A DNA stretch of 64,000 nt from a bacterium (GTDB taxonomy: Bacteria > Verrucomicrobiota > Kiritimatiellia > RFP12 > UBA1067), in contig JAUNMP010000001.1 in NCBI GenBank assembly GCA_030537465.1, positions 3,170-67,169 on the forward strand, in the 5' to 3' direction. Both the position numbers and the translations under genes were made by a program. Shown here piece by piece: positions 20,157 through 36,338 of the stretch; position 1 is the first letter of the stretch; each line of letters begins with the position of its first letter. The notes beneath the pieces were generated by a model. It was not told the DNA's origin. It worked only from the letters and a program-made list of their open reading frames with translations, and ran no database searches.

Positions 20157-23100
20157 ATGAAACGAGTGGTATTGATTGCGGCGGCGTGTCTGTCGTTGGG
20201 CGTCTGGGCGGATGGTTGGCGTTTTGCAGATGGGACGTTGACCTATTCCAAGGATGGTTCGGATTCCTGGAAGATGGTACCATCCGTGAAGGGTACGACG
20301 GTGACCCTGACCTCGCTGGAATCGACGATTCCCGCGGACGGGGTGATCGATTTCGTCGGTGCGCTCGAGGCGTATGGCCTCACGGGGACGGGGTATTCGC
20401 TGGTCTTCGCCGAAGGGGAGGGACTTTCCGTTTTCGCTTCGGCTTTGGACGTGCGGCTGGCCGGCTGTCCGTGGCTGGGGCGGATGGACAAGGCTGCGGG
20501 CGCACCGTTCGCGGGCGTGACGAATCTGGTCGTCGGGACGCTGGGGACGGATCTGGATTTTGGTAGCGGCACGGGAAATACGCAGACCGTGCCGCTGGAA
20601 AACGCCGTGTTCAGTACGGCGGCGAATCTTGCGTCCGTGGAGATCTACGGTGGCAACCTCAAACTGGCGAATGCCTGTAGCGGATCCGGGAACTTGAGGA
20701 CCGTTCTCGTCCAGTCCTCCGGCACGTTGAACATGGGTTCCTGTTCGTTCAACTGCGGCACGAAGCGTCTGATGACGTCGGCGAAGGTCATCGCGGGTGG
20801 AGATCTGAATCTGGGGTCGCGGACGTTTCGGACGTCCCTTGCGACCGGGGCATCCGTGTATGTCGAAGCTCCGACCAAGGCATCCGTTGTGCTGGACGCG
20901 TTTCCGCTCTACGAAACGGAAACGAAATATTGGATCAACCTCTATTGGAACGCACCGGCGCCGAAGACCGTGAACACGAGCACGGATGCCTTTGTCGGCA
21001 ACACGATTGTCAATTGGTTCGTCTACAATACACCGGACGTGGTGGCGGCCTGGCCGAAGATGAACAAGACGTCCACGGTACAATCCGCGGCGAATTCCAG
21101 CATGTGGGTTCGACTTCCGGTCGATCCGACGGACTGCACGGGGGAGGGTTTTTGGCGGGTGCGTGGCACGGATGAGAATCCTTACCGTGGCAGTTCGTCC
21201 GGATGGGGCGGATATGGCGCATTGTACTGGTTCGACATGCGCACGGGAGATTGGTCCTATGCGGACGGCGTCCTGACCTCCGCGCATGGGTGGAAGCTCC
21301 GCCCGTCCTTCAGCGACACGACGGTGACATTGACGTCCGAGGCCTGCACACCGCCTGCGGATGGCGTCCTTGATCTCTCGGGTGCGCTTCAGTCGATGGG
21401 TTCGGCGGCGCCGGCACCCCTCGCTGACCTTTCCCTGGTTCTGACTGAAGGGGACGGACTGACGGTCTTCTCCCAGGTGAAGGTGTTCAAGGCCGCGCAC
21501 TGTCCATGGCTTGGAAAGATGGGGAAGGGAAGCGGCGCGCCGCTGACGAGCCTGGAGGCGTTTTCGGTGGGCATGCCGTTTCGGGATCTGGTCTTCGGCG
21601 ACAGCACGGCGAACACGGGGACGTTCGACACGCGTGCCAACAGTGTCTTCAGCGGAACCTCGACGCTTCGGGAGGGCACGATCCAGGGGCGCAACGTCTC
21701 GCTCAACAATGCCTGTTCGGGGCACAAGACGCTGAAGAGGATCTCCGTCCGCGCGACGGGTACGCTCGACACGGGCGTCTGCGCGTTCAACAGCGGGGGA
21801 TCGAACTTCAATCTCGAGAACGTCTCGTTCGTGGCGGGAGGCAACATCAAGATCGGCGGGCGGACGCTTCGCGCGTCGGTCGCCTCGAATGCGGTCGTCT
21901 ATGTCGAAGCGCCGGCTTCGGCGACGGTGACCCTGGATGAATGGGCGTTCTTCCAGTCCAATGAAAAGTCCCCATTCTCGCTTTATTGGAATGCAGCCGC
22001 GCCGCGTACGGTCGCGACGACGACGAAGCCGATGAACAACAAGACTGTGGCGACCTGGTACTTCTACAATACGCCGGAACTGGTGGCGACCTATCCGGCG
22101 ATGAGCGAGACGAGCAGCGTGCAGTCGGCGTCCAAGTCGTCCCTCTATCTGCGTCTGCCGGTCGATTCGTCTGATACGACGACGGAAGGTTTCTGGCGGA
22201 CGGGAAGCAACACGGATGCGAACCTGGTTCGGGGAGGCAACGAGACGGGATATGGCCCGGCCTATTGGCATGCGCCGTCTGCGATTTCTCCGGGAAATTG
22301 GACATATGCCCAGGGTGTGCTTAAGTTCGTTGACGGGGGCTCCGTGCAGTGGGAGATCGTCCCGTCGGTTTCGAAGAAGACGCTGACGCTGACGTCGAAG
22401 AACGGGACTGCGGCGGCGAACGGTGTTCTGGATCTTGCGGGGGCCGTCGAGGCGCTGAACCAGGGTGGCGTGGACGTGGTGCCGGGAACGGATTGGACGC
22501 TGGTCTTCAATGATGCGGGCGGGGCGTTCGCGAAGGTGAAGGATCTGTCGCTTTCGAACTGCCCGTGGCTCGGACGGATGGAAAAGCAGGCCGGCGCGGG
22601 CTTCTCCGCGCTGGAGCGGATTTCCGTGGGCATGCCGGATGTCGATCTGGTGTTCGGAAATGGCGCGTACAATGCCCAGAAGGTCGAGCCCTCGTACAGC
22701 GTATTCCCCGATTCGGCGAATCTGGGCGAGGTGACGATTCTGGGTGATCGGCTCGAGTTGGATGATGCCTTTGCGGGTCTGCCCAACATTTCAAACGTCT
22801 ACGTCAAGGCGACAAGATTGTTGAATCTGGGGAACTGTTCCTTCAACGACGGCGAAGCGCGCAAGTTGAAGCGGGTGTCGTTCATTTCGGGGGGTAACCT
22901 GAATATGGGCTGGCGGACGACGCGCAATGCGCTCGCGTCCGATGCCGTGATCTACGTCGAGGCGCCGGCGACGGCAACCGTGACGTTGCAGGAATACAGC
23001 TTCTACAATGGAACGGGGACGTCCTATCCTGTGTCAATGTACTGGAATGCGCCGAAACCCGTCATCGCGCAGAACTACGCCGCCGCCAGCATCATGCTGA

Positions 23101-26100: not shown

Positions 26101-26444
26101 CGACGCCGACGGGCTTCGATGCCGATCTCGCCTGGATCTGTGCATCCAACGCCGTGATGTCCGTCGACCATCGCGACTATGGCCAGGGGACGGTCGACTT
26201 CAGCTACGACGTGACCTTCAAGGGACTCAAGGGCGAAGATCTGATGGTGCAGTCCGTGACGAACGGCGCCTTCGCCCTGCCGCCGGAAGGGAAGGCCTAC
26301 GGCCTGCGCATCACGGGATGGACGACGGAGGATGGGAGCGTGACCAATACGCCCGCCCAGATCCAAACGACGCCGGTCTATGACTGGCGAACCTGGTATC
26401 CCGTCGGAGGGGTGATTCCCGGCACGATGATTCTCTTCCAATAG
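20157..26444 (+). CDS. Giant secreted protein (2095 aa): five tandem ~345-aa repeats of an uncharacterised Cys/Trp-rich module plus a C-terminal DUF4886/SGNH-like esterase domain
   Basis: RBS AAGGGGGG precedes the ATG; signal MKRVVLIAAACLSLGVWA. Five repeats share the ordered motifs TLTS ... CPWLGRM ... NACSG ... CSFNCG ... GGDLNLGSRTFRTS ... YVEAP ... LYWNAPAPKT ... WYVYNTPE ... TEGFWR. The C-terminal FLSIGNSFS motif is DUF4886/SGNH-like. Confidence 0.8.
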   Translation: MKRVVLIAAACLSLGVWADGWRFADGTLTYSKDGSDSWKMVPSVKGTTVTLTSLESTIPADGVIDFVGALEAYGLTGTGYSLVFAEGEGLSVFASALDVRLAGCPWLGRMDKAAGAPFAGVTNLVVGTLGTDLDFGSGTGNTQTVPLENAVFSTAANLASVEIYGGNLKLANACSGSGNLRTVLVQSSGTLNMGSCSFNCGTKRLMTSAKVIAGGDLNLGSRTFRTSLATGASVYVEAPTKASVVLDAFPLYETETKYWINLYWNAPAPKTVNTSTDAFVGNTIVNWFVYNTPDVVAAWPKMNKTSTVQSAANSSMWVRLPVDPTDCTGEGFWRVRGTDENPYRGSSSGWGGYGALYWFDMRTGDWSYADGVLTSAHGWKLRPSFSDTTVTLTSEACTPPADGVLDLSGALQSMGSAAPAPLADLSLVLTEGDGLTVFSQVKVFKAAHCPWLGKMGKGSGAPLTSLEAFSVGMPFRDLVFGDSTANTGTFDTRANSVFSGTSTLREGTIQGRNVSLNNACSGHKTLKRISVRATGTLDTGVCAFNSGGSNFNLENVSFVAGGNIKIGGRTLRASVASNAVVYVEAPASATVTLDEWAFFQSNEKSPFSLYWNAAAPRTVATTTKPMNNKTVATWYFYNTPELVATYPAMSETSSVQSASKSSLYLRLPVDSSDTTTEGFWRTGSNTDANLVRGGNETGYGPAYWHAPSAISPGNWTYAQGVLKFVDGGSVQWEIVPSVSKKTLTLTSKNGTAAANGVLDLAGAVEALNQGGVDVVPGTDWTLVFNDAGGAFAKVKDLSLSNCPWLGRMEKQAGAGFSALERISVGMPDVDLVFGNGAYNAQKVEPSYSVFPDSANLGEVTILGDRLELDDAFAGLPNISNVYVKATRLLNLGNCSFNDGEARKLKRVSFISGGNLNMGWRTTRNALASDAVIYVEAPATATVTLQEYSFYNGTGTSYPVSMYWNAPKPVIAQNYAAASIMLTWYVYNTPELAATWTGMDGTFQNLARDFYMKLPADFSDTTTEGGWVVGDPGNPGNAYNKGFYKAFWYAPTVGVNGWSVDLAGQTLSHTNAAGLRDWELVPTISGTALTLSPNGVGTEVLDLCGAIETLDSSLSGMVLSFDTGTGAFANVKELYITNATWLAKMVRQSGASFGALEKFVVDTDGNDLVFGDGTQNALNVARSYSVFSESTVLADATICGGNVKLGNACSGHTTLTQVCVRATGTLDMGYCSFNCGEKVYNIQNASVIAGGDLKMGTRTFRTSFAANASLYVEAPPTATVTLQNWTFYQSNLSCPVKMYWNAPAPKTDHAQVMNGSTDVHWYVYNTPEIVDAWPTMDGTTFQRMSDGATLMIRLPADCENQSEEGVWCNDGNQNNASLRRDSNDWGWGPAYWYNPLPTTEDWTYDAENGLVFVRNGVARWRFTPALEGAKLTLTSQAGSNVPMDGRLDLAGALEKFGGALAGCSIRFVEGDGAAVLSQVRELYLTNCTWLTHLDASDGAVFTALEKLVVGTEGQDLVFGSGAANSKDADATTSVFPGAAATLRDVVVFGGNVQLKNAFVGAGALTQAVVKATGTLDTGTCSFSLPNMTLKRAELRAGGNLTMGDRTFRTAFAKNGKLYVSAPTNAVVTLNAYPLHQRALSKPISVYWSAPPPTGTSQASWSYLDMTWYVDAAYAPCFPPMGGAAVTNQLNGGSIRLSLPANPKNTTTAGFWRCDNGTGAPANGDNDHGCGAAYWCNRWEVEGRPCRFLSIGNSFSQQMFSSSYKFAASAKLLGHPLDAVGLVKGGCSLLTHWNMRADKGTYTLYKDFTSKENPLAGLSGTDVCLTDVLAAVDWDVIVIQQVSTDSPNPETYEPYMGNLVALFRELAPNAELRFQQTWAYDRDCAINSSFKFGGDVAKRDAMYDNIRDTVAEVCERYGMGIIPTGYAIQLYRYGLPVRTAAQDFCSADHRHMSNGQGGNYLQMLTWCMAAFGEMPTKTQIAPPTTPTGFDADLAWICASNAVMSVDHRDYGQGTVDFSYDVTFKGLKGEDLMVQSVTNGAFALPPEGKAYGLRITGWTTEDGSVTNTPAQIQTTPVYDWRTWYPVGGVIPGTMILFQ
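20211..25370 (+). repeat. Five in-frame tandem coding repeats (period about 1030-1045 bp) inside the giant ORF
   Basis: Repeat starts at about 20211, 21247, 22293, 23320 and 24351 (the D/W-x-Y-A-x-G-x-L motif). The repeats are ~40% identical at protein level, indicating ancient duplication rather than recent slippage. Confidence 0.7.
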
Positions 26445-26455: not shown

Positions 26456-28279
26456 ATGAAGATTCATCGTCAGATTGTTTGCTGGCTGGTGGTTTCCGCG
26501 GTCTCGGCGACAGCTGAGACAATTGACGTAAAGTTCAACTACGGGGGACCTCGGGGAAAGCCGAAGATTGAATCGCGCAAGGTTGAACTGAAGCCTCTGG
26601 AAACGGGCGGCTGGCGTTATACGCTGCCGTCCACGGAGATTCCGGAACGGGCCCTCTCCGTGGAGGCGACTGTCCCCGCGCTGCTTTCGGCGCAGAAGGG
26701 CGAGGATGGATTCTGGGTGCTGCCGGATGGACGATATGGCGCGTTCAATCAGGAGAACGGCGTGTGTCTGGAGCGTCCGCGGCGGTCCATTCTGCCATTT
26801 GCCGGCTTCAAGTCGCCTCGGGGCTGCTGGATGGTCATCGTTCGAGGGCTCCGTCTGGAGTGCGACTTCGGCGTGACGGCGACGAATGGACTCTACCGGA
26901 TGTCCGTCTTTCTGCGGACGGGGGAACTGGATCGTCCTGCCTACGAGGGCGGCGTCATCGACATTCTGCCGATGCCGACGGATGCGACCTATGTCGATTT
27001 GGCGAAACGCTACCGCGACGAACAGCTGGCGGCCGGCGTGGTGCGTCCGCTCGCCGATCGGGCGAAGGAGCGTCCCGAACTCGCCTACACGGCCGAGTCG
27101 ATTTTCGTGCGCGTCAAGCACGGATGGAAGGCGCTCAACACCGACCACGAGCAGAAAGCGAAATGGGAGCACCAGACGCCGTCGAACCAGCCGCCGATCC
27201 ACTGCGCGATTTCGTTCGACCGGTTCAAGGACATCATGCGCCGGATGAAGGAGCAGGGTATCGACAAGGCCGAGGTCTGCTCGGTTGGCGGGACGGCGGG
27301 CGGCTTCGACGGACAGTTCCCCGACGTGCTGCCGATTCCTGAAGAGTTTGGCGGCGAACGGAAATTACGCGAGGCCGTCGCCTACGGGAAGTCGCTCGGT
27401 TACCAGGTGGTCACGCATTTCGCGACCACGGCGATGTTCGAGTGCTCGAAGGAGTGGAATCCCGACTTCATCTGCCACACGAAGTCGGGTGAACTGCTGA
27501 AGAGCGGCATTGTCGCGGGCGGACGGACGCATCGGCTGTGTCCGCGCGTCTATCTCGATCACTTCATCAAGCGTGACTGGGCGACGTTCCGCGATCTCGG
27601 CTTCCGCGGTACGCACCACATCGACGTGATTTCCTGCATCCCGCCGTATGCGTGCTTCAATCCGAAGCATCCGCTCACCCGCCGCGAGAGCGCCGACTGC
27701 ATGCGGGAAATCGGTCGCTATTCTCAGCAGACGTTTGGCGGTTTTGGCTCCGAGGCGAGTTTCGACTGGATGGCGCCGTCTCTCGATTTCGCGCTCTACG
27801 TCAGCTGGTATCCCGGGTCCAAGAACGCCGAGGCGACGTCCCTCGTCGATCGCGTCGTGCCGCTTTGGCAGATCGTCTACCACGGCATCATCGTGTCGAA
27901 CCCGTTCTACGCGACGATCGACGCCTACATTGATCGCGCGGCGGGGAAGAAGGGCCTTTCGGATGATCCGTTCGGACGCTTCAGCTATCTCGGGAGCGCG
28001 GCGAACCGGATTCTCAAGGTCCACGAGTTCGGTGGCCGTCCGGTCTTCTACTACACGCTCTACGAGGACGTTGCGCCGCTCAAGCGTGCCTATGACGACT
28101 ATCGGCGCTTGTCGCATCTCCAGTATGCGTTCATGGAGGACCATCGTGAGCTTGCGAGAGATGTTTTCCTGACCCGCTACTCTACGGGAGAGGAGACGGT
28201 CGCGAACTATTCTGAAAGGCCATTCGCCTGGCGAGGACGGAGTGTGGCCTCGAAGCAGTTTGAACTTTTCACGAAATGA
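26456..28279 (+). CDS. Secreted hypothetical protein (607 aa), possibly a glycan-active enzyme
   Basis: Signal MKIHRQIVCWLVVSAVSATA. No recognisable catalytic family. Aromatic-rich, with codon usage consistent with coding and an 11-bp gap to the upstream gene. Confidence 0.5.
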   Translation: MKIHRQIVCWLVVSAVSATAETIDVKFNYGGPRGKPKIESRKVELKPLETGGWRYTLPSTEIPERALSVEATVPALLSAQKGEDGFWVLPDGRYGAFNQENGVCLERPRRSILPFAGFKSPRGCWMVIVRGLRLECDFGVTATNGLYRMSVFLRTGELDRPAYEGGVIDILPMPTDATYVDLAKRYRDEQLAAGVVRPLADRAKERPELAYTAESIFVRVKHGWKALNTDHEQKAKWEHQTPSNQPPIHCAISFDRFKDIMRRMKEQGIDKAEVCSVGGTAGGFDGQFPDVLPIPEEFGGERKLREAVAYGKSLGYQVVTHFATTAMFECSKEWNPDFICHTKSGELLKSGIVAGGRTHRLCPRVYLDHFIKRDWATFRDLGFRGTHHIDVISCIPPYACFNPKHPLTRRESADCMREIGRYSQQTFGGFGSEASFDWMAPSLDFALYVSWYPGSKNAEATSLVDRVVPLWQIVYHGIIVSNPFYATIDAYIDRAAGKKGLSDDPFGRFSYLGSAANRILKVHEFGGRPVFYYTLYEDVAPLKRAYDDYRRLSHLQYAFMEDHRELARDVFLTRYSTGEETVANYSERPFAWRGRSVASKQFELFTK

Positions 28280-28288
28280 GGATATACC

Positions 28289-29734
28289 ATGACGACGAGA
28301 CGACAGTTTCTTGACCGGGCGCTGGCCCTGGCGGCGTTGACGGGCGTTCCCGCGAAGATGTGGGGCGCCGCGGAGGCTCTAGGCGAGCCGGATCTGCGCA
28401 TTGGCGTGTTGAGCGACATCCACCTGAGCCATGAACACGATGTCCGTTCAAAGACAAGCCCGACAAAGGAGATGTTCATCCACGCGCTTGAGTATTTCCG
28501 CGATCGGAAGGTCCATGGCGTGCTCGTCTGCGGAGACCTTGCGAATGCCGGTCTGGTCGACGAGCTGGAGATGGTGTCGGACGCCTGGTTCAAGGTCTTC
28601 CCGGACGGGAAACTTCCCGATGGCACGCCCGTGGCCAACCTCATGCACTATGGCGACCACGATACGGAAAGGCGGTTCTACAGGAAGGATCGTTTCGAGC
28701 CGATGTACGCGAAGAAGGGGCTTCCGATCCCCGAAAGCCTGAGCGAGGGCGAGAACCGGAAGATCTATTGGGAGAAATACTTCAAGGAGCCCTGGTCGCC
28801 CATCCGCCACGTGAAGGTGCGGGGGTATGATTTCGTGCTGGGGAACTTCATGCGGGAGTGTCCGGGGACGACGCCGGGCCTCGCGGACTTCCTGGCGAAG
28901 CTGAACCCCGATCCGAAGAAGCCGTTTTTCTACAGCCAGCACCGCTGGATCTGCGGAACCTATCTCGCGGACGAGGAGATGTGGGGCGGGGACAGCGGCA
29001 AGAACGGTCCCGTGCTCATGAAGTTCCCGAACGCCGTGGCGTTCACGGGGCACACCCACTACATGCTGACGGACGATCGGATCGTCTGGCAGGACGGCTA
29101 CACGCAGATCAACGCTGGATCCCTGCTCAACGCCCCCTGCGGACGTCAGCGGGAGAACGGCATCGACATCTCGTGGTATAAGAACGACTATATGCGCGAC
29201 ACGCAGATGAAGTCTCTGAACGCGCACCAGGGGCACCATGGTATGGTGTTCAGCCTGAAGGGAGACTCCGCGGTCATCGAACGTCGTGATTTCGGCTGCG
29301 ATCTCCCGGTGGGGCCCGATCTCGTGTTTTCGCTTTCGTCCAAATCCCATACTCGTGCAAACTGCGAGCCGGCGAGCGTCGCGCCCGAATTTCCGCAGGG
29401 GGGGGCTGTGTCCGCCGTGGCCCGAGCGGGAAAGAACCGCAAGGGAGAGGCCGTCGACCAGATCGTCGTGACGTTCCCCGTGGCGGCACCGACGAAGGAC
29501 ACGCCGCGCGCGCTCGACTACGAAGTCCGAGCCGAGAAGGCGGATGGTACGTTGCTGAAGGCTAAACGCGTCTATTCACCGGGGATCAATCTGCCGCCGG
29601 AGAAGGACGCAGCCAAGGCGGTCTGTGTCTTCGCCAGATCCGAAGTCGGGGCCGGTCCCGTGCGCTTCGTGGTCCATCCCGCGAACTGCTGGCGCAAGGC
29701 CGGAAAGCCGATCTCGGTTGCTTTTGAAGGTTGA
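28289..29734 (+). CDS. TAT-exported metallophosphoesterase (paralog of 15382..16869)
   Basis: TAT signal MTTRRQFLDRALALAALTG. Motifs GVLSDIHL, CGDLANAG, GDHD and GHTHY. Confidence 0.75.
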   Translation: MTTRRQFLDRALALAALTGVPAKMWGAAEALGEPDLRIGVLSDIHLSHEHDVRSKTSPTKEMFIHALEYFRDRKVHGVLVCGDLANAGLVDELEMVSDAWFKVFPDGKLPDGTPVANLMHYGDHDTERRFYRKDRFEPMYAKKGLPIPESLSEGENRKIYWEKYFKEPWSPIRHVKVRGYDFVLGNFMRECPGTTPGLADFLAKLNPDPKKPFFYSQHRWICGTYLADEEMWGGDSGKNGPVLMKFPNAVAFTGHTHYMLTDDRIVWQDGYTQINAGSLLNAPCGRQRENGIDISWYKNDYMRDTQMKSLNAHQGHHGMVFSLKGDSAVIERRDFGCDLPVGPDLVFSLSSKSHTRANCEPASVAPEFPQGGAVSAVARAGKNRKGEAVDQIVVTFPVAAPTKDTPRALDYEVRAEKADGTLLKAKRVYSPGINLPPEKDAAKAVCVFARSEVGAGPVRFVVHPANCWRKAGKPISVAFEG

Positions 29735-29741
29735 GGAAAGG

Positions 29742-31943
29742 ATGACGACGATGAAGAGCGTGGCTGCATTGGGGCTTTGTGGATGTCTGGCTCTTGCCTG
29801 CCTGGCGGACGAGCGTCCGATTGGCGTGTTCGATTCGGGACTGGGTGGTCTGACCGTGCTCGAGCGCTTGCTGGATTGTGACCGCGTCAACAATGAAACG
29901 GGAGCTCCGGGAGCGGATGGCATTCCGGATTTCGCGCACGAGCGATTCGTCTATCTCGGCGACCAGGCGAACATGCCCTATGGCGATTACGCGGCCGAGA
30001 AGAAGAGCGACCTCCTGAAGGAGCTGATCGTCGACGACGCAAAATTTCTGTTGGGGACGTCGTTCCACCGCTCGGCCCAGGAGAAGGTGCCGACGGGGAA
30101 GAAGGACCGCGCGAAGATTCTCGTCATCGCCTGCAACACGGCGACGGCGTGGGGGCTTGAGGAGGTTCGGAACCGTCTCAAGGCCGCGGGCGACGACACC
30201 CAGGTCGTGGGGGTGATCGAGGCTGGCGTGCGGGCGACGCTGGACTTGCTGAAGGCGGACAAGGCCAGCCCGTCCTTCGCAGTTGGCGTGCTTGCGACGC
30301 CGGGCACGATCGCTTCGGGAGCCTATACGAAGACGCTGAGGATCGAACTGGCCGCCCGTGGCATCGACTGCGAGGTGCCCGTCTACGGGCAGGGCTGTGC
30401 GGGTTTGGCCGACGCGGTCGAGGCCTGTTCTCCGACGGCTGACCAGATCGCCGTCGACAACCTCCGGAAGATGCTGGAGCAGCACCGCGCATCAGGAGCG
30501 AAGGCACCGCTGCGCGCGGTCATTCTCGGCTGTACGCATTTCCCGTTCGTTCAGTCCGCCCTCGAGAAGGCATTGGCCGAAGAGCGTGCGAAGGGCGCGA
30601 ACATCGCTGCCGATTGCTGCTTCGTCGATCCGGCCATCTACACGGCCGCGGAGTGCTATCGTCTGCTGAAGAAGAACGGACTGCTGGCGAAGACCCTGCA
30701 GCCGGCTCCGTCCGCGGCCTTCCTTTCCGTGGCCAATCCCGATCTGGCGAAGGAGCATCTCATGGACGACGGACAGCTGACGCGCGCCTTCAAGTACGGC
30801 CGCTCGATCGACGGGCGCGTCGGCACGACCAAGCCGATTCCGTTTACGCACGCCAATTTCAAGCCCGAGGTCTTCGCGCAGGTCGGCCGTCTGCTACCGC
30901 GCACGGCGGCGTTGCTTGAGGCCGTTCCGTCGTTCACCATGCGGATTGACGACAATCACTCTCCGGCCGAGTGGAAGCGCGTCGCGGAGATCTTTGAAAG
31001 CCGCGGCATGCGCGTCTCCTTTGCCATCGTACCCAGTTCGCTTTCGGATGCGCAGGGGGCCTGCTTGAAGGAACTTTCCGACCGCGGACATGTCATTATG
31101 GACCATACGCCGAACCATACGTTCTATCGGGCGACGTATCATGACATTGAGGCTTTCAACTCCGCCAAGACAAAACCGTTTGTCCTGGAAGTGGACGAAA
31201 AGGGCAAAATTCTCTTCTTCAGACCCACGGTTGACGACGCCCACCCGCAAAACTGCCGCGTCAAGGCGAAGATCGAGAAGAACGTCCTCACGTTCACCGA
31301 TGCGAAAGCCCCCAAGCGCACCTACTACACGTTCATCAAAATTCCGGGGCGTTCGGAGGTTTTCGGATTGGCCAGTCGGAACGGCGTGTATGATCTGCGT
31401 GACTTCTGGCGTCGACCGTTGAAGGAGCAGATTGATTTGGCCAAGACGGAGGTTCTGCTCTACGACCAGGCGGCAATTCAGCCCTGTGACGACATCCTCC
31501 GCGAACTCGCGCGTGTCTCGCGCGAACGCTTCGCCCACTTCAATTTGCCGTTGCCCACCATCTGGGTGCGTCCCGGCGGCTGGGATCCAGGTGTGCAATG
31601 GGAACGGCTGGAACGGATCTATGGACGCGAGTTCGGCTACATCGGCGCGGATTCCAGCGTCGGTGGCGTCTGGGGCGGCAGCCGCTGGACGACGGGCTAC
31701 GACGCGATGTACTTCTTCGACCAGGGGGCGGACATCACTCCCGAACAGCTAGTCGACCAGATCGAGAAGCGCCTCGCGGCCGGCAAGTACCATGTGACGC
31801 TTTCGCACATGTGGAACAACAAGCTTCCGGGACGGATGGATGAATACTATCAGAAGACCGAGCGCTTTGCCCAATTGCTGGTTGATCGAAAAATCCCGTT
31901 CCTGACGATGAAGGGAACGCTGGATGCACGATTTGGGAAGTAA
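29742..31943 (+). CDS. Exported fusion protein: MurI-like glutamate racemase (Asp/Glu racemase) domain + NodB-like polysaccharide deacetylase (CE4) domain
   Basis: Signal MTTMKSVAALGLCGCLALACLA. All three MurI blocks are present: IGVFDSGLGGLTV, LVIACNTATA, ILGCTHFPF. The C-terminal half has RIDDNH and DHTPNHT, which match the NodB motifs (TFDD / HxxxH). Confidence 0.65.
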   Translation: MTTMKSVAALGLCGCLALACLADERPIGVFDSGLGGLTVLERLLDCDRVNNETGAPGADGIPDFAHERFVYLGDQANMPYGDYAAEKKSDLLKELIVDDAKFLLGTSFHRSAQEKVPTGKKDRAKILVIACNTATAWGLEEVRNRLKAAGDDTQVVGVIEAGVRATLDLLKADKASPSFAVGVLATPGTIASGAYTKTLRIELAARGIDCEVPVYGQGCAGLADAVEACSPTADQIAVDNLRKMLEQHRASGAKAPLRAVILGCTHFPFVQSALEKALAEERAKGANIAADCCFVDPAIYTAAECYRLLKKNGLLAKTLQPAPSAAFLSVANPDLAKEHLMDDGQLTRAFKYGRSIDGRVGTTKPIPFTHANFKPEVFAQVGRLLPRTAALLEAVPSFTMRIDDNHSPAEWKRVAEIFESRGMRVSFAIVPSSLSDAQGACLKELSDRGHVIMDHTPNHTFYRATYHDIEAFNSAKTKPFVLEVDEKGKILFFRPTVDDAHPQNCRVKAKIEKNVLTFTDAKAPKRTYYTFIKIPGRSEVFGLASRNGVYDLRDFWRRPLKEQIDLAKTEVLLYDQAAIQPCDDILRELARVSRERFAHFNLPLPTIWVRPGGWDPGVQWERLERIYGREFGYIGADSSVGGVWGGSRWTTGYDAMYFFDQGADITPEQLVDQIEKRLAAGKYHVTLSHMWNNKLPGRMDEYYQKTERFAQLLVDRKIPFLTMKGTLDARFGK

Positions 31944-31997
31944 GGGGATTGGGAACCCAAAAACAGGAACTAGGAATTGGGAGAAAGGACGATTTTC

Positions 31998-33938
31998 GTG
32001 AAGGCGGTATTGTTTGCTGGGGTGGGGGTTGTTGCGGGATGCGTCTGGGGGGCGATGCCAAAGGGCGGCATCTGCGCGCACCGTGGAGACCGGGCGTCCT
32101 TCCCTGAAAACACGGTGGCGGCATTCAAGTCCGCCGTGGAGAAGGGGGCGGCGATGGTGGAGTTCGATGTCCATCGCTGCAAGACGGGCGAGCTGATCGT
32201 CATGCACGACAACACCATCGACCGCACGACGACGGGGCATGGCCGCTGGGCGGACTGCACGTTCGAGTACCTTCGTAGCGTGGATGCGGGCGTCAAGCGT
32301 GGACCGCAGTTCGCCGGCACGAAGATCCCGACGTTCGACGAGGCGATCGACTGCTTCCCGAAAGACGGCGTGTGGCTGAACGTCCACTGCGATGATTCGG
32401 TCACGGACGAAGTCGCCCGCAAGATCAAGGAGAAGGGGCGTCTCCATCAGGCCTTCATCGCGGCGACGGCGCCGGGGGTGGCACGGGCGCGCGCCGTCGT
32501 GCCGGAGATCAAGGTCTGCCTCTTCTCCCTTCCCAAGGACTGCTGGGGGCATTCCTGGACGGCCGAGGAGCGTGCGGCGTCGATTGCCGAGGTAATGGCG
32601 GCGAAGGCCGAGTTCACGCAGCCGAACAATGCTGACTTCACGCAGGACGAGCTCTACAAGTACCACGCGGCAGGAGGCAAGGTCAACTATTTCTGGTGCA
32701 ACAAGCCATCCCGCCTGCCGGCGCTTCTCGCCCGCGGCATCGACTTCCCGTTGACGGACAATCTGGTGCCGATGGTCGAAGCGTATCGCGCCTGTGTCGA
32801 GAGGCCCTGGTCGCCGGCGGACCCCGAACGCGGACGTGGCTACCTGCCGGACGCAGAGCCCGTGGTCGGACGGCTCTCGCCGCTGCGCAGAGGATACCTG
32901 CGGGCGGATCGCAGATTCGCAGGCATCCCGTCGCTTGCCATCTCCCCGAAGAATGGCCGCCAGTGGCGGACATTCTATGCGGGCCCTACGGATGGTGAGG
33001 ATTCCAACAACTTCATCGTGCTGGCGACGCGCGCAGACGCCACCGCGTCCTGGCAGGAGGTCCTCTACTACGATCCCGACGGGGATGGCCCGCGTCGTGC
33101 CTTCGATCCGGAACTGTGGGTGAGCCCGGACGGAAAGCTCCAGTGGACATGGACCGAACGGTCCGTGCCGTTGCGGGATGGCGATCTCAACCGCTTCACG
33201 CATCGTGACGAGGCGCAGAAGGAACAGCTGATGGCGGTTACGCTGAATGCCGAGGACGTACCGACGCCCCCCTATCCGGCGCTCCGCGTACTGCTGGGCG
33301 GTGGCGTGATGATGTGCAAGCCGATCGCCGCAAAGGATGGTCGCTGGCTGTATCCGGTGTCGTTCTGGGATGATGATTTCAGTGCCCGCATCTACGCATC
33401 GACGGACAGGGGACAGACACTCTCCCTCGTCGGAAGCGCGTCGCTGCCGGAGAAGTTCCGCGAATTCGATGAGCACAATGTGGTCGAACTCAAGGACGGC
33501 ACGCTCCGCGTCTACATGCGGACGAAGAACAATCCGGGATGGAACGCCTGGCAGGCGGATTCTCGCGACGGCGGCCGGACCTGGGAGCCTTCGAAGCCGT
33601 GTCCGTTCCCGCACACCAATTCGCGGCTCTTCGTCCGCCGTCTGCAGAGTGGCGCCCTGCTGCTGGTGAAGAATGGTCCGCTTGACAGGCCTCTTGCCAC
33701 CCAGAACTACCGTGGGCGTGCGGACATGACGGCCTACGTCTCCGACGACGAGGGGGCGACCTGGACGGGAGGCTTGCTCTTGCAGGCGGGGGCCTGCGCC
33801 TACCCGGATGGCGATCAGGCGCCGGATGGCACGATCCATGTCACCTGCGACGGCGACCGCTTCACGAAGCAGGAGATCTTCGACGCCGCCTTCACCGAAG
33901 CCGATGTCCGCCGTGCGCAGAGTCCGTCCCGTAAATGA
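31998..33938 (+). CDS. Lipoprotein fusion: glycerophosphodiester phosphodiesterase (GDPD) domain + BNR-repeat sialidase-like beta-propeller
   Basis: GTG 31998 sits 8 nt after AAAGGA; lipobox VVAGC. GDPD block ICAHRGDRASFPENTVAAFKSAVEKGAAMVEFDVHRCKTGELIVMHDNTIDRTT. Three BNR motifs in the C-terminal propeller: STDRGQTL, SRDGGRTW, SDDEGATW. The listed ORF starts at TTG 31977. Confidence 0.7.
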   Translation: MKAVLFAGVGVVAGCVWGAMPKGGICAHRGDRASFPENTVAAFKSAVEKGAAMVEFDVHRCKTGELIVMHDNTIDRTTTGHGRWADCTFEYLRSVDAGVKRGPQFAGTKIPTFDEAIDCFPKDGVWLNVHCDDSVTDEVARKIKEKGRLHQAFIAATAPGVARARAVVPEIKVCLFSLPKDCWGHSWTAEERAASIAEVMAAKAEFTQPNNADFTQDELYKYHAAGGKVNYFWCNKPSRLPALLARGIDFPLTDNLVPMVEAYRACVERPWSPADPERGRGYLPDAEPVVGRLSPLRRGYLRADRRFAGIPSLAISPKNGRQWRTFYAGPTDGEDSNNFIVLATRADATASWQEVLYYDPDGDGPRRAFDPELWVSPDGKLQWTWTERSVPLRDGDLNRFTHRDEAQKEQLMAVTLNAEDVPTPPYPALRVLLGGGVMMCKPIAAKDGRWLYPVSFWDDDFSARIYASTDRGQTLSLVGSASLPEKFREFDEHNVVELKDGTLRVYMRTKNNPGWNAWQADSRDGGRTWEPSKPCPFPHTNSRLFVRRLQSGALLLVKNGPLDRPLATQNYRGRADMTAYVSDDEGATWTGGLLLQAGACAYPDGDQAPDGTIHVTCDGDRFTKQEIFDAAFTEADVRRAQSPSRK

Positions 33939-33949
33939 GGAGACCGAGG

Positions 33950-34201
33950 ATGAATCCAGAAATGAAGTTTCCCGTTGTCGCCCACCACCGCGTGATCATC
34001 ACCGCCGCATCGCGGGATGACGCCACGGTGCAGGCCCTCTTCAAGTCGTTTGATCTGGTCGAGCCGATCGCAGTCGGCAACACCTCTTCGTGCGGAAAGT
34101 ACCTTTCGTACGGCATTTCCGTGCGGTTTGGAACCCCTGACGAGATGGCCCGCTTCGACGAGGTCCTCAAGCTGGTGCCTGGACTGAAGATGGTTCTTTG
34201 A
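33950..34201 (+). CDS. ybeD: YbeD-like DUF493 (UPF0250) small protein
   Basis: MKFPVVAHHRVI ... NTSSCGKYLSYGISV ... LKMVL parallels E. coli YbeD (EFPTPFTYKVMG ... KPSSKGNYHSVSITI ... VRMVL). Confidence 0.6.
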   Translation: MNPEMKFPVVAHHRVIITAASRDDATVQALFKSFDLVEPIAVGNTSSCGKYLSYGISVRFGTPDEMARFDEVLKLVPGLKMVL

Positions 34202-34259
34202 TTGGGGTTGTGGAAATGTCCGGGCCGGATGCAGACCCGTGTGTATGGAGGATTTTTCG

Positions 34260-36338
34260 ATGAAGTTCGTGCCAGTCGTTCTCGCGGGGCTTGTCAGCCT
34301 TGCTGCCGCCGCCCGGCCTGCCCGCATCGAGTGGGGAAAGGCGTTCGAGAGGGATACGCTTGAGCAGGGCGCGAAGATCTTCTCGGATCGCAACTACACC
34401 TTCAATCTGCCGCCGGAATCGTTGAAGGGGGCACATTTTCTGCGCGGGTCGATCATGGGGACACGTTTCCGCGTGGTGGCGGACGGTGAACTCGTCGTGC
34501 TCACGCCGATGTTCGTCCCCGCCCGGAACGGGCATCCACCGGCGGCCTCACAGGGCGAGGCCCTGGCGAAGGTCGGTTTCAAGAAGGACGACGGACCACT
34601 TTTCCAATTGTGGGGGAAAGGCGAGATCGAGCAGGGCGAAATCTGGCGGAAGAGCGTGAAGGCCGGCGAAAGCTACGCATTCGGCAAGTTCGCGATTCCC
34701 GTGGGATTCGATGCTTCAAGTGGACTCCGCGCAACATCAAGTGTGGCGATGGAGACGCTTTACAACGGCATTCGGTTGGAGTCGGATCCGCGCGACCGCA
34801 GCGATATGACCGCGTATCGGAACTATCCGCTGCCGGTGCCGTATCTGGACAATCCCCCGGCGGTGATTCCTGTGGATGTGGGGCGGCAGCTGTTCATAGA
34901 CGACTTCCTGATCGCCGAGACGACGATGGCGCGGACCTGGCACAAGGCGCAGAAGGATTCGCGCAATCCCGTGATGGTGCCGACGACGCCGCTCGAGAAG
35001 GGCGAGCTCTCGGGGTTCGCCAAGCCAACCGAGCCGATGGCGGCGCCGTTCTCCGGCGGCGTGTGGTTCGACGGCACGGACAACCTGTTCAAGTGCTGGT
35101 ATTGTGCAGGGTGGTTCGACGGGACGGGGTACGCCTATTCGAAGGACGGCTACGACTGGATTCGTCCGAACCTCAGGGCGGTGCCGGGCACGAACCGCGT
35201 CGTGCCGCCGGCGGTCGTCGACGGCAAGCGGTCGCGCCGCGATTCGGCCGCCGTCATCCTCGATCCGGACTGCACGGGCGGGTCGCGATTCAAGATGCTG
35301 ATCTGGTCGCGTCCGCAGGGCGGTGAGTTGTTCGTTTCGGACAATGGGCTCGACTGGGGGAAGTCGACGGTCTGGGCTCCCACGGGGGATCGGTCGACGA
35401 TCTTCTACAATCCGTTCCGCAAGGTCTGGGTCTACTCGATCCGCAGTGGTTGGCATGACCGCTCGCGCGAGTATGCGGAGTCGCGCGACTTCCTGGGCGG
35501 CGCAGGACTCGAGAACCGCGTGAGGTGGCTGCGGGCGGATAGTCGCGACCAGCCGGAGACGAGCTGGATCTACAGCGAACCAGGCAACTTCGACACCGAT
35601 GCCCGCGCGGCGTCGCTCTACAACTTCGACGCCGTTGCCTATGAGTCGCTGATGCTCGGCGCGTTCACGCTGATGACGGGCGCGGACAATGGTGATTGCA
35701 GCAAGCGTGACCACCCGAAGATGACCGACATCCACCTTGGCTTCAGCCGCGACGGATTCCATTTCTCCCGCGCCGAGGACCGTTCGCCGTTCATTGTCGC
35801 CTCGCGGAAGGCGGGCACGTGGGACCGCGGCTATCTGCATTCGAACGCGGCGCTGTGCCTGGTGGACGGCGATGAACTGAAATTCTACTATACGGGCTTC
35901 GCGGGCAAGACGGGCGAGTACAAGGACCGAGCTCACAACGGCATCTATTCGAACGCCTCGATGGGTATCGCCCGCCTGCGCCGGGACGGTTTCGCGTCAA
36001 TGGATGCAGGTTCGTGCGGCGGAACGCTTGTGACGCGTCCGATCAAGTTCACGCAGGGCGACCGTCTGTTCGTCAACGCGAACGCGGCGGGTGGTTCGCT
36101 CAAGGCCGAGATTCTGGACGAGAAGGGGGCCGTGCTCTCCGTGTCGAAGGACTGGTCCGGCAACGCGACAAAGGCCGAAATCCTCGGCGGACTCGCCACG
36201 TTGGCGGGGCGGACGATTCGTCTGCGGTTCACGGCGAAGGAGGCGCAGCTCTACGCGTTCTGGTTTTCGGACGCCTCGGGCCGTAGCCGTGGCTATTTGG
36301 CTGGCGGTTCGCCGCAGCACGCCACGCTTCGTGACTAA
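34260..36338 (+). CDS. Secreted beta-propeller glycoside hydrolase-like protein (GH32/43/130-superfamily-like; family uncertain)
   Basis: GGAGGA RBS with a 7-nt spacer to ATG 34260; signal MKFVPVVLAGLVSLAAAA. WYCAGWFDGTGYAYSKDGYDW-type propeller blades are present. Confidence 0.45.
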   Translation: MKFVPVVLAGLVSLAAAARPARIEWGKAFERDTLEQGAKIFSDRNYTFNLPPESLKGAHFLRGSIMGTRFRVVADGELVVLTPMFVPARNGHPPAASQGEALAKVGFKKDDGPLFQLWGKGEIEQGEIWRKSVKAGESYAFGKFAIPVGFDASSGLRATSSVAMETLYNGIRLESDPRDRSDMTAYRNYPLPVPYLDNPPAVIPVDVGRQLFIDDFLIAETTMARTWHKAQKDSRNPVMVPTTPLEKGELSGFAKPTEPMAAPFSGGVWFDGTDNLFKCWYCAGWFDGTGYAYSKDGYDWIRPNLRAVPGTNRVVPPAVVDGKRSRRDSAAVILDPDCTGGSRFKMLIWSRPQGGELFVSDNGLDWGKSTVWAPTGDRSTIFYNPFRKVWVYSIRSGWHDRSREYAESRDFLGGAGLENRVRWLRADSRDQPETSWIYSEPGNFDTDARAASLYNFDAVAYESLMLGAFTLMTGADNGDCSKRDHPKMTDIHLGFSRDGFHFSRAEDRSPFIVASRKAGTWDRGYLHSNAALCLVDGDELKFYYTGFAGKTGEYKDRAHNGIYSNASMGIARLRRDGFASMDAGSCGGTLVTRPIKFTQGDRLFVNANAAGGSLKAEILDEKGAVLSVSKDWSGNATKAEILGGLATLAGRTIRLRFTAKEAQLYAFWFSDASGRSRGYLAGGSPQHATLRD

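What the first reader, a model, noticed from the sequence alone, without database searches (positions are those of the whole stretch)
29742..31943. Exported fusion of a MurI-type glutamate racemase domain with a NodB-like polysaccharide deacetylase domain
All three MurI signature blocks are present (IGVFDSGLGGLTV, VIACNTATA, LGCTHFPF). They are preceded by a cleavable signal peptide, so the racemase domain is predicted to be periplasmic or extracellular. Canonical MurI is cytoplasmic. It is fused to a domain with NodB-like D-D and H-x-x-x-H motifs. The architecture suggests action on D/L-Glu-containing polymers, such as peptidoglycan stem peptides or poly-gamma-glutamate, coupled to de-N-acetylation. 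It may instead be a different Asp/Glu-racemase-superfamily activity. I know of no described equivalent.
Basis: partly seen in the sequence, partly recalled or inferred. Interest (0 to 1): 0.6.

Follow-up and report, generated by a model that had tools for sequence, protein, structure and literature searches.

The report
Exported glutamate racemase fused to deacetylase
This gene encodes a secreted protein that joins a glutamate-racemase-type domain, normally a cytoplasmic cell-wall-synthesis enzyme, to a distant polysaccharide-deacetylase-type domain; the racemase part belongs to a large family of exported racemases, with no paper found describing it, that probably recycle D-glutamate from bacterial cell-wall debris.

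Summary
One 733-aa ORF (29742-31943, +) encodes a signal peptide, a MurI-type domain with every catalytic motif, and a distant CE4/NodB-like domain.

The racemase domain is not a one-off.
- It belongs to a family of at least 254 clusters at 50% identity, and at least 600 genomic loci.
- Members occur in Kiritimatiellae, Bacteroidota, Verrucomicrobiota, Planctomycetota and other phyla.
- 117 of the 120 closest homologues have a signal peptide or lipobox.
- The catalytic Asp-Ser, Cys-Asn-Thr and Cys-Thr-His residues are invariant.

In other members the module is fused to gamma-glutamyltranspeptidase, peptidase C26, a Na+/glutamate symporter, a D-glutamate-cyclase-like domain, DD-carboxypeptidases, D-aminoacylase-family amidohydrolases and dipeptidase C69. 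This points to periplasmic D-/L-glutamate interconversion during scavenging of peptidoglycan or gamma-glutamyl compounds. That function is inferred, not shown.

The CE4-like half is usually a standalone exported protein of about 365 aa in glycan-degrading loci. The racemase+CE4 fusion occurs in only two protein clusters. Close strain variants lack the racemase module, so chemical coupling of the two domains is unsupported.

I found no literature on exported MurI-type racemases. Verdict: a new variant of a known kind, of moderate to high interest.

The parts
29733..29741 (+). Shine-Dalgarno-like GAGGAAAGG, overlapping the TGA stop (29732-29734) of the upstream gene
   Evidence: Read directly from the sequence. 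The 7-nt gap to the upstream gene suggests operon-like coupling.
29742..31943 (+). Whole gene: 733-aa exported two-domain protein. NCBI's call (P0001, 730 aa) starts at ATG 29751.
29742..29807 (+). Predicted Sec signal peptide, residues 1-22 (MTTMKSVAALGLCGCLALACLA | DERP)
   Evidence: Hydropathy. Low-confidence N-terminal helix in the model, pLDDT 52-57. Orthologues P0002 and P0005 keep the hydrophobicity but not the sequence. SP-like N-termini are family-wide. SignalP was not available.
29811..30896 (+). MurI-type (Asp/Glu racemase fold) domain, residues 24-385. It includes a family-specific C-terminal extension (about residues 315-385).
   Evidence: Pfam Asp_Glu_race 34.6 bits against GA 31. 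NCBIfam glutamate racemase E 6e-30, below the equivalog cut-offs. PDB profile hits are only MurI. Model pLDDT 91 and Foldseek E 4.5e-18, TMt 0.75-0.78 to MurI.
29829..29840 (+). FDSG motif, residues 30-33 (Asp31, Ser32)
   Evidence: Invariant in 47 family members. Equivalent to H. pylori D7/S8 (PMC6927343).
29874..29939 (+). Family-specific insert D-x-NN-x-TG-xx-G-x-DG-x-PDF, residues 45-66, absent from canonical MurI
   Evidence: Alignment A2. The PDB alignments skip this segment.
30129..30143 (+). ACNTA motif, residues 130-134, with the first catalytic Cys131 (plus Asn132, Thr133)
   Evidence: Equivalent to C70/T72 of H. pylori MurI.
30528..30539 (+). GCTH motif, residues 263-266, with the second catalytic Cys264 (plus Thr265, His266)
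   Evidence: Equivalent to C181/T182/H183.
30924..31940 (+). Divergent CE4/NodB-like metal-hydrolase domain, residues 395-733. It starts exactly where mature standalone homologues start (A/V-PSFTMRIDD).
30948..30953 (+). CE4 motif-1 equivalent: Asp403-Asp404 (RIDDNH)
   Evidence: Invariant in 56 of 56 sequences. Aligned to the TFDD motif of 2c71.
31104..31118 (+). CE4 motif-2 equivalent: His455-x-x-x-His459 (HTPNH)
   Evidence: Both His residues invariant in 56 of 56. Aligned to HEIGNH of 2c71.
31182..31463 (+). All-beta subdomain of about 95 residues inserted in the barrel (protein residues about 481-574). Not present in classical CE4 domains of about 200 aa.
   Evidence: Secondary structure of the model. 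TMq about 0.4 against TMt 0.6-0.76.
31569..31583 (+). CE4 motif-3 equivalent: R610-P-G-G-W
   Evidence: R in 49 of 56; P, G and W in 56 of 56. The assignment to motif 3 is inferred from order and pattern.
31806..31808 (+). CE4 motif-5 equivalent: His689 (L-S-H), the putative catalytic acid
   Evidence: Invariant in 56 of 56. The role is inferred.
28289..29734 (+). Upstream neighbour: 481-aa metallophosphoesterase with a twin-arginine-like N-terminus (MTTRRQFLDRALALAAL)
   Evidence: In a strain variant it is fused in frame to the CE4-like domain.
31977..33938 (+). Downstream neighbour: exported GDPD phosphodiesterase + BNR_2 (sialidase-like) protein
26456..28279 (+). Neighbour: DUF5696 protein related to GH129 alpha-N-acetylgalactosaminidase

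Best explanation
The gene encodes a Sec-exported, two-module catabolic enzyme of a ruminant-gut Kiritimatiellae-type bacterium.

Module 1 (residues about 24-385) is a cofactor-independent, two-cysteine racemase of the MurI type. It works outside the cytoplasm. It interconverts D- and L-glutamate released in the periplasm from peptidoglycan stem peptides or other gamma-glutamyl compounds, so that D-Glu becomes usable L-Glu.

Module 2 (residues 395-733) is a distant, metal-dependent CE4-type deacetylase or esterase with an extra beta subdomain. It removes acetyl groups from a glycan handled by the surrounding exported glycosidase and phosphodiesterase cluster.

The two modules probably act independently. 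The fusion reflects co-localisation, not a coupled reaction.

Shown here: homology, the intact catalytic motifs, the export signal (by sequence features and family conservation), the folds, and the fusion and neighbour statistics.

Inferred: the substrate (free Glu), the direction (D to L, catabolic), and the substrate of the deacetylase.
For: MurI identity:
- Only glutamate racemases are hit in the PDB, by profile (E 1e-24) and by fold (47 top hits, E down to 4.5e-18, then Asp racemase).
- NCBIfam's best models are glutamate racemase (105 and 98 bits, against 36 for CuyB and 18 for Asp racemase).
- D31, S32, C131, N132, T133, C264, T265 and H266 are invariant in 47 family members. Together with E160 (Glu in this protein, Asn in the Bacteroidales consensus) they match the residues listed for H. 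pylori MurI in PMC6927343.

Export:
- N-terminal hydrophobic signal.
- 117 of 120 homologues have SP-like N-termini and 68 have lipobox-like motifs.
- 66 genomic loci from several phyla show the same.
- Canonical MurI structures start 1-5 residues before the first strand.

Glutamate and peptidoglycan link (Rosetta-stone fusions of the same module):
- gamma-glutamyltranspeptidase (L065, 532 bits), peptidase C26, GATase1-like, peptidase C69.
- Na+/glutamate symporter GltS, D-glutamate-cyclase-like domain, PF00144 DD-peptidase family, S11 DD-carboxypeptidase, Amidohydro_3.

Neighbours of standalone members:
- D-aminoacylase-family amidohydrolase plus an AmpH-like lipoprotein.
- PBP4/S13 in Bacteroidales.
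- An M14 carboxypeptidase in Pedobacter.

CE4 module:
- Fold hits are all CE4.
- 45 of 56 family members hit PF01522.
- The D-D, H-x3-H, R-P and L-x-H equivalents are invariant or nearly so.
- Standalone homologues are exported and sit in CAZyme loci.

Independence of the modules:
- The fusion is seen only in P0001 and P0002.
- Variants P0003, P0004 and L092 lack the racemase module.
Against: - No enzymatic data exist for any member of the family.
- The protein scores far below the curated MurI equivalog cut-offs (105 against 328, and 98 against 146.65). It carries a family-specific insert and a C-terminal extension that could change the substrate.
- Some fusion partners do not fit a glutamate story: GH5, CE15, SGNH, EEP, beta-helix.
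- In Bacteroidales and in one Kiritimatiellae contig the gene sits among housekeeping genes. That could point to a cell-wall maintenance role, not a catabolic one.
- Export was not tested with a trained predictor or by experiment.
- One fusion, MatE + racemase (P0260), would place the domain in the cytoplasm if the transporter has 12 helices. It may be a gene-call merge.
- I could not check whether the genome has a separate cytoplasmic murI.
Confidence: 0.55

Rival explanations
1. The exported MurI-like module is an epimerase acting on bound glutamate, not free glutamate. Candidate substrates are L-Ala-D-Glu, gamma-D-Glu-mDAP, intact stem peptides, poly-gamma-glutamate and N-acyl-D-Glu. Epimerisation would make D-Glu linkages cleavable by L-specific peptidases, analogous in logic to the YcjG L-Ala-D/L-Glu epimerase.
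For: The family-specific insert (residues 45-66) and the roughly 70-residue C-terminal extension are absent from canonical MurI and could open the pocket. Fusions to dipeptidase C69, C26, GGT, DD-peptidases and D-aminoacylase-family enzymes fit a peptide substrate equally well.
Against: The Asp-Ser pair and the C-N-T and C-T-H residues are all invariant. From my knowledge of MurI structures, not tested here, these residues contact the free alpha-amino and alpha-carboxylate of glutamate. Fusions to a glutamate symporter and a D-glutamate-cyclase-like domain point to the free amino acid.
Confidence: 0.2
2. The module makes D-glutamate from L-glutamate in the periplasm for cell-envelope editing or signalling. 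This would be a cofactor-independent counterpart of the periplasmic PLP-dependent broad-spectrum racemases (BsrV, P. putida Alr).
For: Periplasmic amino-acid racemases have precedent (PMC7890096; PMC6034422). In Bacteroidales there is housekeeping-type conserved synteny next to PBP4. In a Kiritimatiellae contig the gene lies next to PrmC/RF1.
Against: The fusion partners are overwhelmingly hydrolases and an uptake transporter, which suggests catabolism. In this window the gene lies in a degradative cluster, and close strains dispense with the module.
Confidence: 0.12
3. The racemase-like module is a non-catalytic binding or anchoring domain for D-Glu-containing cell-wall peptides. It would target diverse exported hydrolases to peptidoglycan, in the manner of a carbohydrate-binding module.
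For: The same module, at 60-80% identity, is attached to many unrelated catalytic partners, on either side of them. This is typical of targeting modules.
Against: Both catalytic cysteines and all auxiliary residues are strictly invariant across members that are 45-69% identical to this domain. Most members are standalone proteins.
Confidence: 0.06
4. This is an ordinary cytoplasmic MurI with a mis-called start or an N-terminal membrane anchor. The apparent signal peptide would be irrelevant, and the fusion a gene-call or assembly artefact.
For: The protein has full MurI catalytic machinery. I could not show that a second murI exists in this genome (one search covers only the 64-kb window).
Against: No alternative start removes the hydrophobic segment. 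The ORF is continuous and is reproduced in independent assemblies (P0001 from NCBI and Logan; P0002 from ENA at 87% identity). Signal peptides or lipoboxes are conserved across several phyla. The positive charge lies N-terminal of the hydrophobic core, which favours an outward-facing C-terminus. The partner CE4-like family and both neighbouring genes are exported too.
Confidence: 0.04

Closest known systems
MurI / RacE glutamate racemase (EC 5.1.1.3; TIGR00067; PDB 2gzm, 1zuw, 2jfx, 1b73)
   Same: Same two-domain Asp/Glu-racemase fold (Foldseek E 4.5e-18, TMt 0.75-0.78). Same FDSG, D-x-x-x-x-PYG, ACNTA and GCTH motifs with both catalytic cysteines.
   Different: It has an export signal, whereas MurI is cytoplasmic. 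It has a 22-residue insert after helix 1 and a C-terminal extension of about 70 residues; Bacteroidales members carry a further insert of about 90 residues. It scores below the curated equivalog cut-offs. It is fused or adjacent to degradative and periplasmic enzymes, not to cell-wall precursor synthesis genes.
CE4 / NodB-homology polysaccharide deacetylases and acetylxylan esterases (PF01522; e.g. C. thermocellum CE4 2c71, B. subtilis PdaC 6h8l, S. pneumoniae PgdA 2c1g, V. cholerae COD 4ny2)
   Same: Fold (Foldseek probability 1.0, TMt 0.6-0.76). Equivalents of the Asp-His-His metal triad and of the motif 1, 2, 3 and 5 residues are conserved.
   Different: Sequence identity is about 9%. This protein is below Pfam's gathering score. 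It is about 340 residues with an inserted all-beta subdomain of about 95 residues. It forms a small separate family (74 proteins) that also weakly matches DUF2334.
Periplasmic broad-spectrum amino-acid racemases (V. cholerae BsrV; P. putida KT2440 Alr)
   Same: The concept is the same: an amino-acid racemase exported to the periplasm. For P. putida Alr the role is catabolic (PMC6034422; PMC7890096).
   Different: Those enzymes are PLP-dependent with the alanine-racemase fold. This one is a cofactor-independent two-thiol enzyme of the Asp/Glu racemase superfamily. Specificity probably differs as well (Glu here, Lys/Arg and others there).
Cytoplasmic murein-peptide catabolism (MpaA M14 amidase, YcjG L-Ala-D/L-Glu epimerase, PepD) and the DgcN-DgcA D-glutamate pathway
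   Same: The logic is the same: D-Glu from peptidoglycan must be stereo-inverted before use. An M14 carboxypeptidase neighbours the family member in Pedobacter. The DgcN-DgcA route from D-Glu to L-Glu is mentioned in PMC10845958.
   Different: Those pathways are cytoplasmic and, to my knowledge (not tested here), use unrelated epimerase folds. Here the inversion step appears to be placed outside the cytoplasm.

Membership tests
MurI glutamate racemase (Asp/Glu racemase superfamily) | Two-domain alpha/beta Asp/Glu-racemase fold | tested here: met
   AF2 model pLDDT 91.4. The top 47 Foldseek PDB hits are glutamate racemases. Pfam PF01177 scores 34.6, above GA 31.
MurI glutamate racemase (Asp/Glu racemase superfamily) | Two catalytic cysteines in the ACNTA and GCTH motifs | tested here: met
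   Cys131 and Cys264 are present and invariant in 47 family members.
MurI glutamate racemase (Asp/Glu racemase superfamily) | Auxiliary active-site residues (H. pylori D7, S8, T72, E150, T182, H183) | tested here: met
   D31, S32, T133, E160, T265 and H266 are present. The residue list comes from PMC6927343. E160 is Asn in the Bacteroidales consensus.
MurI glutamate racemase (Asp/Glu racemase superfamily) | Score above the curated equivalog cut-offs (TIGR00067, NF002035) | tested here: not met
   98.5 against 146.65, and 104.8 against 328. The protein is therefore a divergent relative and not an equivalog.
MurI glutamate racemase (Asp/Glu racemase superfamily) | Cytoplasmic enzyme supplying D-Glu to MurD | tested here: not met
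   A signal peptide is predicted from sequence features and is conserved family-wide. This is a prediction only, with no experiment.
MurI glutamate racemase (Asp/Glu racemase superfamily) | D/L-glutamate racemase activity | not testable with these tools
   Needs an enzyme assay.
CE4 / NodB polysaccharide deacetylase | PF01522 NodB homology domain at the gathering score | tested here: not met
   18.8-20.4 bits against 23.1. At family level, 45 of 56 members match at E<=0.01, with a best E of 3.2e-7.
CE4 / NodB polysaccharide deacetylase | Distorted (beta/alpha) barrel fold of CE4 | tested here: met
   Model pLDDT 94.6. Nearly all PDB hits at E<=1e-3, and all of the top 18, are CE4 enzymes, with probability 1.0 and TMt up to 0.76.
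CE4 / NodB polysaccharide deacetylase | Asp-His-His metal triad (motif 1 second Asp; motif 2 H-x-x-x-H) | tested here: met
   D404, H455 and H459 are invariant in 56 of 56. They align to the corresponding motifs of 2c71. The geometry was not measured.
CE4 / NodB polysaccharide deacetylase | Catalytic base Asp (motif 1) and catalytic acid His (motif 5), with Arg of motif 3 | tested here: inconclusive
   D403, H689 and R610 are conserved (56/56, 56/56 and 49/56). Their assignment rests on motif order, not on a residue-level structural superposition.
CE4 / NodB polysaccharide deacetylase | Metal-dependent de-N- or de-O-acetylase activity | not testable with these tools
   Needs an enzyme assay.
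Sec/lipoprotein-exported protein | N-terminal n-, h- and c-region signal peptide | tested here: met
   Lys5, a 17-residue hydrophobic core and a C-L-A|D site. Orthologues conserve the hydrophobicity. 117 of 120 homologues are SP-like. SignalP was not available.
Broad-spectrum periplasmic racemases (Bsr) | PLP-dependent alanine-racemase fold | tested here: not met
   No alanine-racemase-family Pfam or NCBIfam hit was found. The fold is MurI-type.

The most novel reading that the evidence does not exclude
The exported MurI-like module does not act on free glutamate. It epimerises glutamate while it is still part of a polymer or peptide in the cell envelope, either gamma-D-Glu in peptidoglycan stem peptides or poly-gamma-glutamate. 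This would be an undescribed extracytoplasmic 'peptidoglycan glutamate epimerase'. It would either open D-Glu linkages to L-specific peptidases during necromass digestion or edit the cell's own wall.
Probability: 0.12. Interest if true: 0.85.

Novelty: new variant of a known kind. Interest (0 to 1): 0.62.

Why it matters
MurI-type glutamate racemases are treated as strictly cytoplasmic, essential cell-wall-synthesis enzymes and as antibiotic targets. The only exported amino-acid racemases I could find described are PLP enzymes.

A large exported, thiol-based MurI-like family would add a missing extracytoplasmic step to D-glutamate and peptidoglycan recycling. The family occurs in the main polymer-degrading phyla of guts, rumen, soils and waters. 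D-glutamate is a sizeable and poorly understood pool of organic nitrogen.

The fusions to GGT, GltS, a D-glutamate-cyclase-like domain and DD-peptidases give directly testable hypotheses. Isolates such as Pedobacter africanus carry the gene. The finding also warns that automatic 'glutamate racemase' annotations in these phyla may not mark the biosynthetic murI.

Tried and rejected
1. A downstream cytoplasmic start. Rejected because no in-frame start removes the hydrophobic segment.

2. Conserved gene neighbourhood across 66 genomic loci. Only Bacteroidales show synteny: an RNase-D-like exonuclease, an RlmI-like methyltransferase, RluA, PBP4, a PLP aminotransferase, GSIII and a PurM-like protein. 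This looks like lineage gene order and gives only a weak PBP4 hint. Verrucomicrobia and Planctomycetes show no conserved neighbours.

3. The idea that the racemase and the CE4-like gene are habitual neighbours. Rejected because standalone CE4-like genes sit beside GH3, GH31, beta-helix, SASA and CBM genes, never beside a racemase.

4. Looking for a second, canonical murI. None was found in the 64-kb window or in any fetched locus. The whole genome could not be searched.

5. Literature searches. Five searches for exported, periplasmic or lipoprotein glutamate racemases, or for Kiritimatiellae racemases, found nothing relevant.

7. PDB sequence searches of the neighbouring genes. The 699-aa protein and the metallophosphoesterase gave no hits. 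Only the DUF5696 protein matched, to GH129.

8. The MatE-racemase fusion (P0260) as topological evidence. Set aside as ambiguous and possibly a merged gene call.

Full report
**1. Observation**

The + strand carries one uninterrupted ORF.
- The longest version starts at GTG 29625. That start overlaps the upstream gene, which stops at 29732-29734.
- The credible starts are ATG 29742 and ATG 29751, preceded by GAGGAAAGG. NCBI's call of the identical protein (P0001, 730 aa) uses 29751.
- From 29742 the product is 733 aa.
- All quoted motifs are present: IGVFDSGLGGLTV (from residue 27), VIACNTATA (from 128), LGCTHFPF (from 262), RIDDNH (D403, D404) and HTPNH (455-459).
- Residues 1-22 form a typical signal peptide: Lys5, a 17-residue hydrophobic core, then C-L-A|D-E-R-P. 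The first racemase strand begins four residues later.
- The only other in-frame start codons (V7, L10) keep the hydrophobic segment.

**2. N-terminal domain**

- Pfam Asp_Glu_race is just above its threshold (34.6 against 31).
- The best NCBIfam models are glutamate-racemase equivalogs (105 and 98 bits), far ahead of cysteate (36) and aspartate (18) racemases. They remain well below the curated cut-offs.
- A profile of 47 relatives hits only glutamate racemases in the PDB (E 2.6e-24 and weaker). It aligns the FDSG, PYG, ACNTA and GCTH regions and skips a family-specific insert.
- The AlphaFold model (pLDDT 91.4; residues 1-20 at 52-57, as expected for a signal peptide) has 47 MurI chains as its best Foldseek hits, followed by an archaeal aspartate racemase.
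- D31, S32, C131, N132, T133, C264, T265 and H266 are invariant in the family alignment.
- Together with E160 they correspond to the D7, S8, C70, T72, E150, C181, T182 and H183 residues listed for H. pylori MurI (PMC6927343).

The domain is therefore a divergent but catalytically intact MurI relative. It has a 22-residue insert (residues 45-66) and a C-terminal extension of about 70 residues.

**3. It belongs to a large exported family**

- The closest 120 proteins are mostly standalone proteins of about 400 aa (Kiritimatiellae) or about 500 aa (Bacteroidales), annotated only as 'aspartate/glutamate racemase family protein'.
- 117 of the 120 have a signal-peptide-like N-terminus and 68 have a lipobox-like motif.
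- A scan of one genome per species found at least 600 matching stretches. They came from Kiritimatiellae, many Bacteroidales, Sediminibacterium, Pedobacter africanus (an isolate), Flavobacteriaceae, Verrucomicrobiales (Prosthecobacter, Brevifollis, an Akkermansia MAG), Planctomycetota, KSB1 and Vulcanimicrobiota.
- In the 66 loci where I could delimit the ORF, a signal peptide or lipobox precedes the GVFDSG motif.
- A profile search of 1.84 billion cluster representatives gives 254 clusters at E<=1e-30. The 2,604 at E<=1e-10 include ordinary MurI.
- Five literature searches found nothing on exported MurI-type racemases.
- The exported racemases found in the literature searches are PLP enzymes: BsrV, and P. 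putida Alr, which has a catabolic role.

**4. What the module does: evidence from fusions and neighbours**

The same module is fused in single ORFs to the following partners.
- gamma-glutamyltranspeptidase (Pirellulales L065, 532 bits, with an intact signal peptide and the HTTHF processing site).
- Peptidase C26 and GATase1-like domains, and dipeptidase C69.
- A Na+/glutamate symporter GltS, arranged as signal peptide, racemase, then about 10 membrane helices.
- A D-glutamate-cyclase-like domain (209 bits).
- PF00144 DD-peptidase/beta-lactamase-family domains (twice), an S11 D-Ala-D-Ala carboxypeptidase and an Amidohydro_3 domain of the D-aminoacylase family.

Neighbours of standalone members point the same way.
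- One Kiritimatiellae member overlaps the start of an Amidohydro_3 gene and lies near an AmpH-like lipoprotein.
- Bacteroidales members lie next to PBP4/S13.
- The Pedobacter member lies next to an M14 carboxypeptidase.

Other partners do not fit this pattern: SGNH esterases, CE15, GH5, EEP and beta-helix. The enrichment for glutamate-, gamma-glutamyl- and D-peptide-handling envelope proteins is still striking.

I infer a periplasmic D-/L-glutamate racemase that serves scavenging of peptidoglycan and gamma-glutamyl compounds. Free Glu as the substrate and D-to-L as the physiological direction are inferences.

**5. C-terminal domain**

- The query scores just below Pfam's thresholds for Polysacc_deac_1 and DUF2334.
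- 45 of 56 family members match PF01522 at E<=0.01.
- The profile aligns its D-D and H-x3-H motifs to the CE4 esterase 2c71 and to a PgdA-type enzyme.
- The model is very confident (pLDDT 94.6).
- Its PDB hits at E<=1e-3 are nearly all CE4 enzymes, including the whole top 18: acetylxylan esterases, PdaC, PgdA, Bc1960 and Vibrio chitin deacetylase. Probability is 1.0 at about 9% identity.
- D403, D404, H455, H459 and H689 are invariant, and R610 and D637 nearly so.
- An all-beta subdomain of about 95 residues is inserted in the barrel.
- The family is small (74 proteins). Members are almost always standalone proteins of about 365 aa, and 65 of 73 have signal peptides. Their mature N-terminus (A/V-PSFTMRIDD) is exactly where the fusion's second domain begins.
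- They sit in CAZyme contexts, never next to a racemase.

The second refutation criterion is therefore half met at the single-sequence HMM level. It is overruled by the family-level HMM, fold and motif evidence. The domain is a distant CE4-like metal hydrolase of unknown substrate.

**6. The fusion and its locus**

- The window region 9.2-39 kb is one co-directional cluster. In order it encodes:
  - a TRAP transporter;
  - EutBC;
  - a metallophosphoesterase;
  - two xylose-isomerase-like TIM proteins;
  - an FAD oxidoreductase;
  - a 2,095-aa DUF4886 protein;
  - a GH129-like DUF5696 protein;
  - a second metallophosphoesterase with a Tat-like N-terminus;
  - the target gene;
  - GDPD+BNR_2;
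  - DUF493;
  - an unknown 699-aa protein;
  - GH2.
- This looks like a locus for digesting phosphodiester- and GalNAc/Gal-containing envelope or host glycans and phospholipid head groups. That reading is inference.
- The racemase+CE4 architecture is seen only in P0001 and P0002 (87% identity).
- P0005, whose racemase domain is 82% identical, carries a different C-terminal domain.
- A related contig (L092) is a mosaic of window segments at 89-100% identity. In it the upstream metallophosphoesterase is joined in frame to the CE4-like domain, and the signal peptide and racemase module are absent. The junction shows GTTGCTT..GAGG microhomology, and the protein cluster P0004 has 122 member sequences.
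- P0003 joins the signal peptide directly to the CE4-like domain.

The racemase module is therefore mobile and dispensable at this locus. Nothing supports a coupled racemase-deacetylase reaction.

**7. Verdict**

- The protein fails two MurI membership tests (the curated score and the cytoplasmic location) but passes the fold and catalytic-residue tests. It 'works like' MurI but is not the biosynthetic MurI equivalog.
- Whether the genome has a separate cytoplasmic murI could not be tested. None occurs in the window or in any fetched locus.
- Novelty: a new variant of a known kind, namely an exported MurI-type racemase family of which this fusion is a rare member.
- Interest is about 0.6. A cell-wall or D-amino-acid specialist would be surprised by extracytoplasmic MurI-type racemases. 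The fusions make a D-glutamate salvage route directly testable. The function remains unproven, and the specific fusion looks incidental.

Noticed in passing
L092:1-4202 versus window 15283-15375, 17666-18719, 28204-29727, 30916-31992, 33939-34216: A Logan contig from another sample is a five-piece mosaic of the window at 89-100% identity, with each junction at a gene or domain boundary. It lacks the FAD oxidoreductase, the 2,095-aa gene, DUF5696, the racemase module and GDPD-BNR, and it fuses the metallophosphoesterase to the CE4-like domain. It is either a streamlined strain variant or an assembly artefact. The protein cluster P0004 has 122 member sequences.
   Followed up: partly
P0003 (739 aa) and P0005 (669 aa), relatives of window 29742-33938: P0003 joins the target's signal peptide directly to the CE4-like domain and then to the BNR domain of the downstream gene, with the racemase and GDPD modules missing. 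P0005 keeps the racemase (82% identity) but carries a different, unannotated C-terminal domain. Closely related Kiritimatiellae therefore show extensive domain shuffling.
   Followed up: partly
window 9229-15312: TRAP transporter genes (DctP with a Tat-like motif, a DctQ-DUF805 fusion, DctM) lie directly upstream of ethanolamine ammonia-lyase EutB/EutC. They are co-directional with the phosphodiesterase and glycosidase cluster. This suggests catabolism of phosphoethanolamine or glycerophosphoethanolamine head groups.
   Followed up: no
window 20157-26444: A 2,095-aa ORF whose only Pfam match is a DUF4886 domain near the C-terminus (residues 1746-1983). The remaining roughly 1,700 residues are unannotated.
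   Followed up: no
window 34239-36338 and 41309-44029: Two large proteins (699 aa and 906 aa) have no Pfam match. The 699-aa protein has a signal-peptide-like N-terminus and also has no PDB sequence match.
   Followed up: partly
window 26456-28279: The DUF5696 protein matches GH129 alpha-N-acetylgalactosaminidase (5wzn, E 1e-15) and, more weakly, a 3,6-anhydro-D-galactosidase. This hints at a GalNAc-containing substrate for the cluster.
   Followed up: partly
L004, L005, L006, L008 and 14 further Bacteroidales loci (L016-L062): In Bacteroidales the racemase-like lipoprotein of about 500 aa has conserved synteny. An RNase-D-like exonuclease and an RlmI-like methyltransferase lie downstream. PBP4 (S13), a PRK07568-type PLP aminotransferase, type III glutamine synthetase and a PurM-like gene lie upstream. 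This is a housekeeping-like setting, unlike the degradative setting in the window.
   Followed up: partly
window 46039-47937: The cysteinyl-tRNA synthetase ORF is 632 aa, and its catalytic domain starts only at residue 197. It may have an N-terminal extension of about 195 residues, or the ORF start may be over-extended.
   Followed up: no
P0260 (813 aa), and L002:8583-11218: A MatE transporter gene overlaps the start of the racemase-like gene by 4 nt in a Kiritimatiellae contig. In another cluster representative the two are one ORF. If that is real, the topology of the racemase domain there is unclear.
   Followed up: partly
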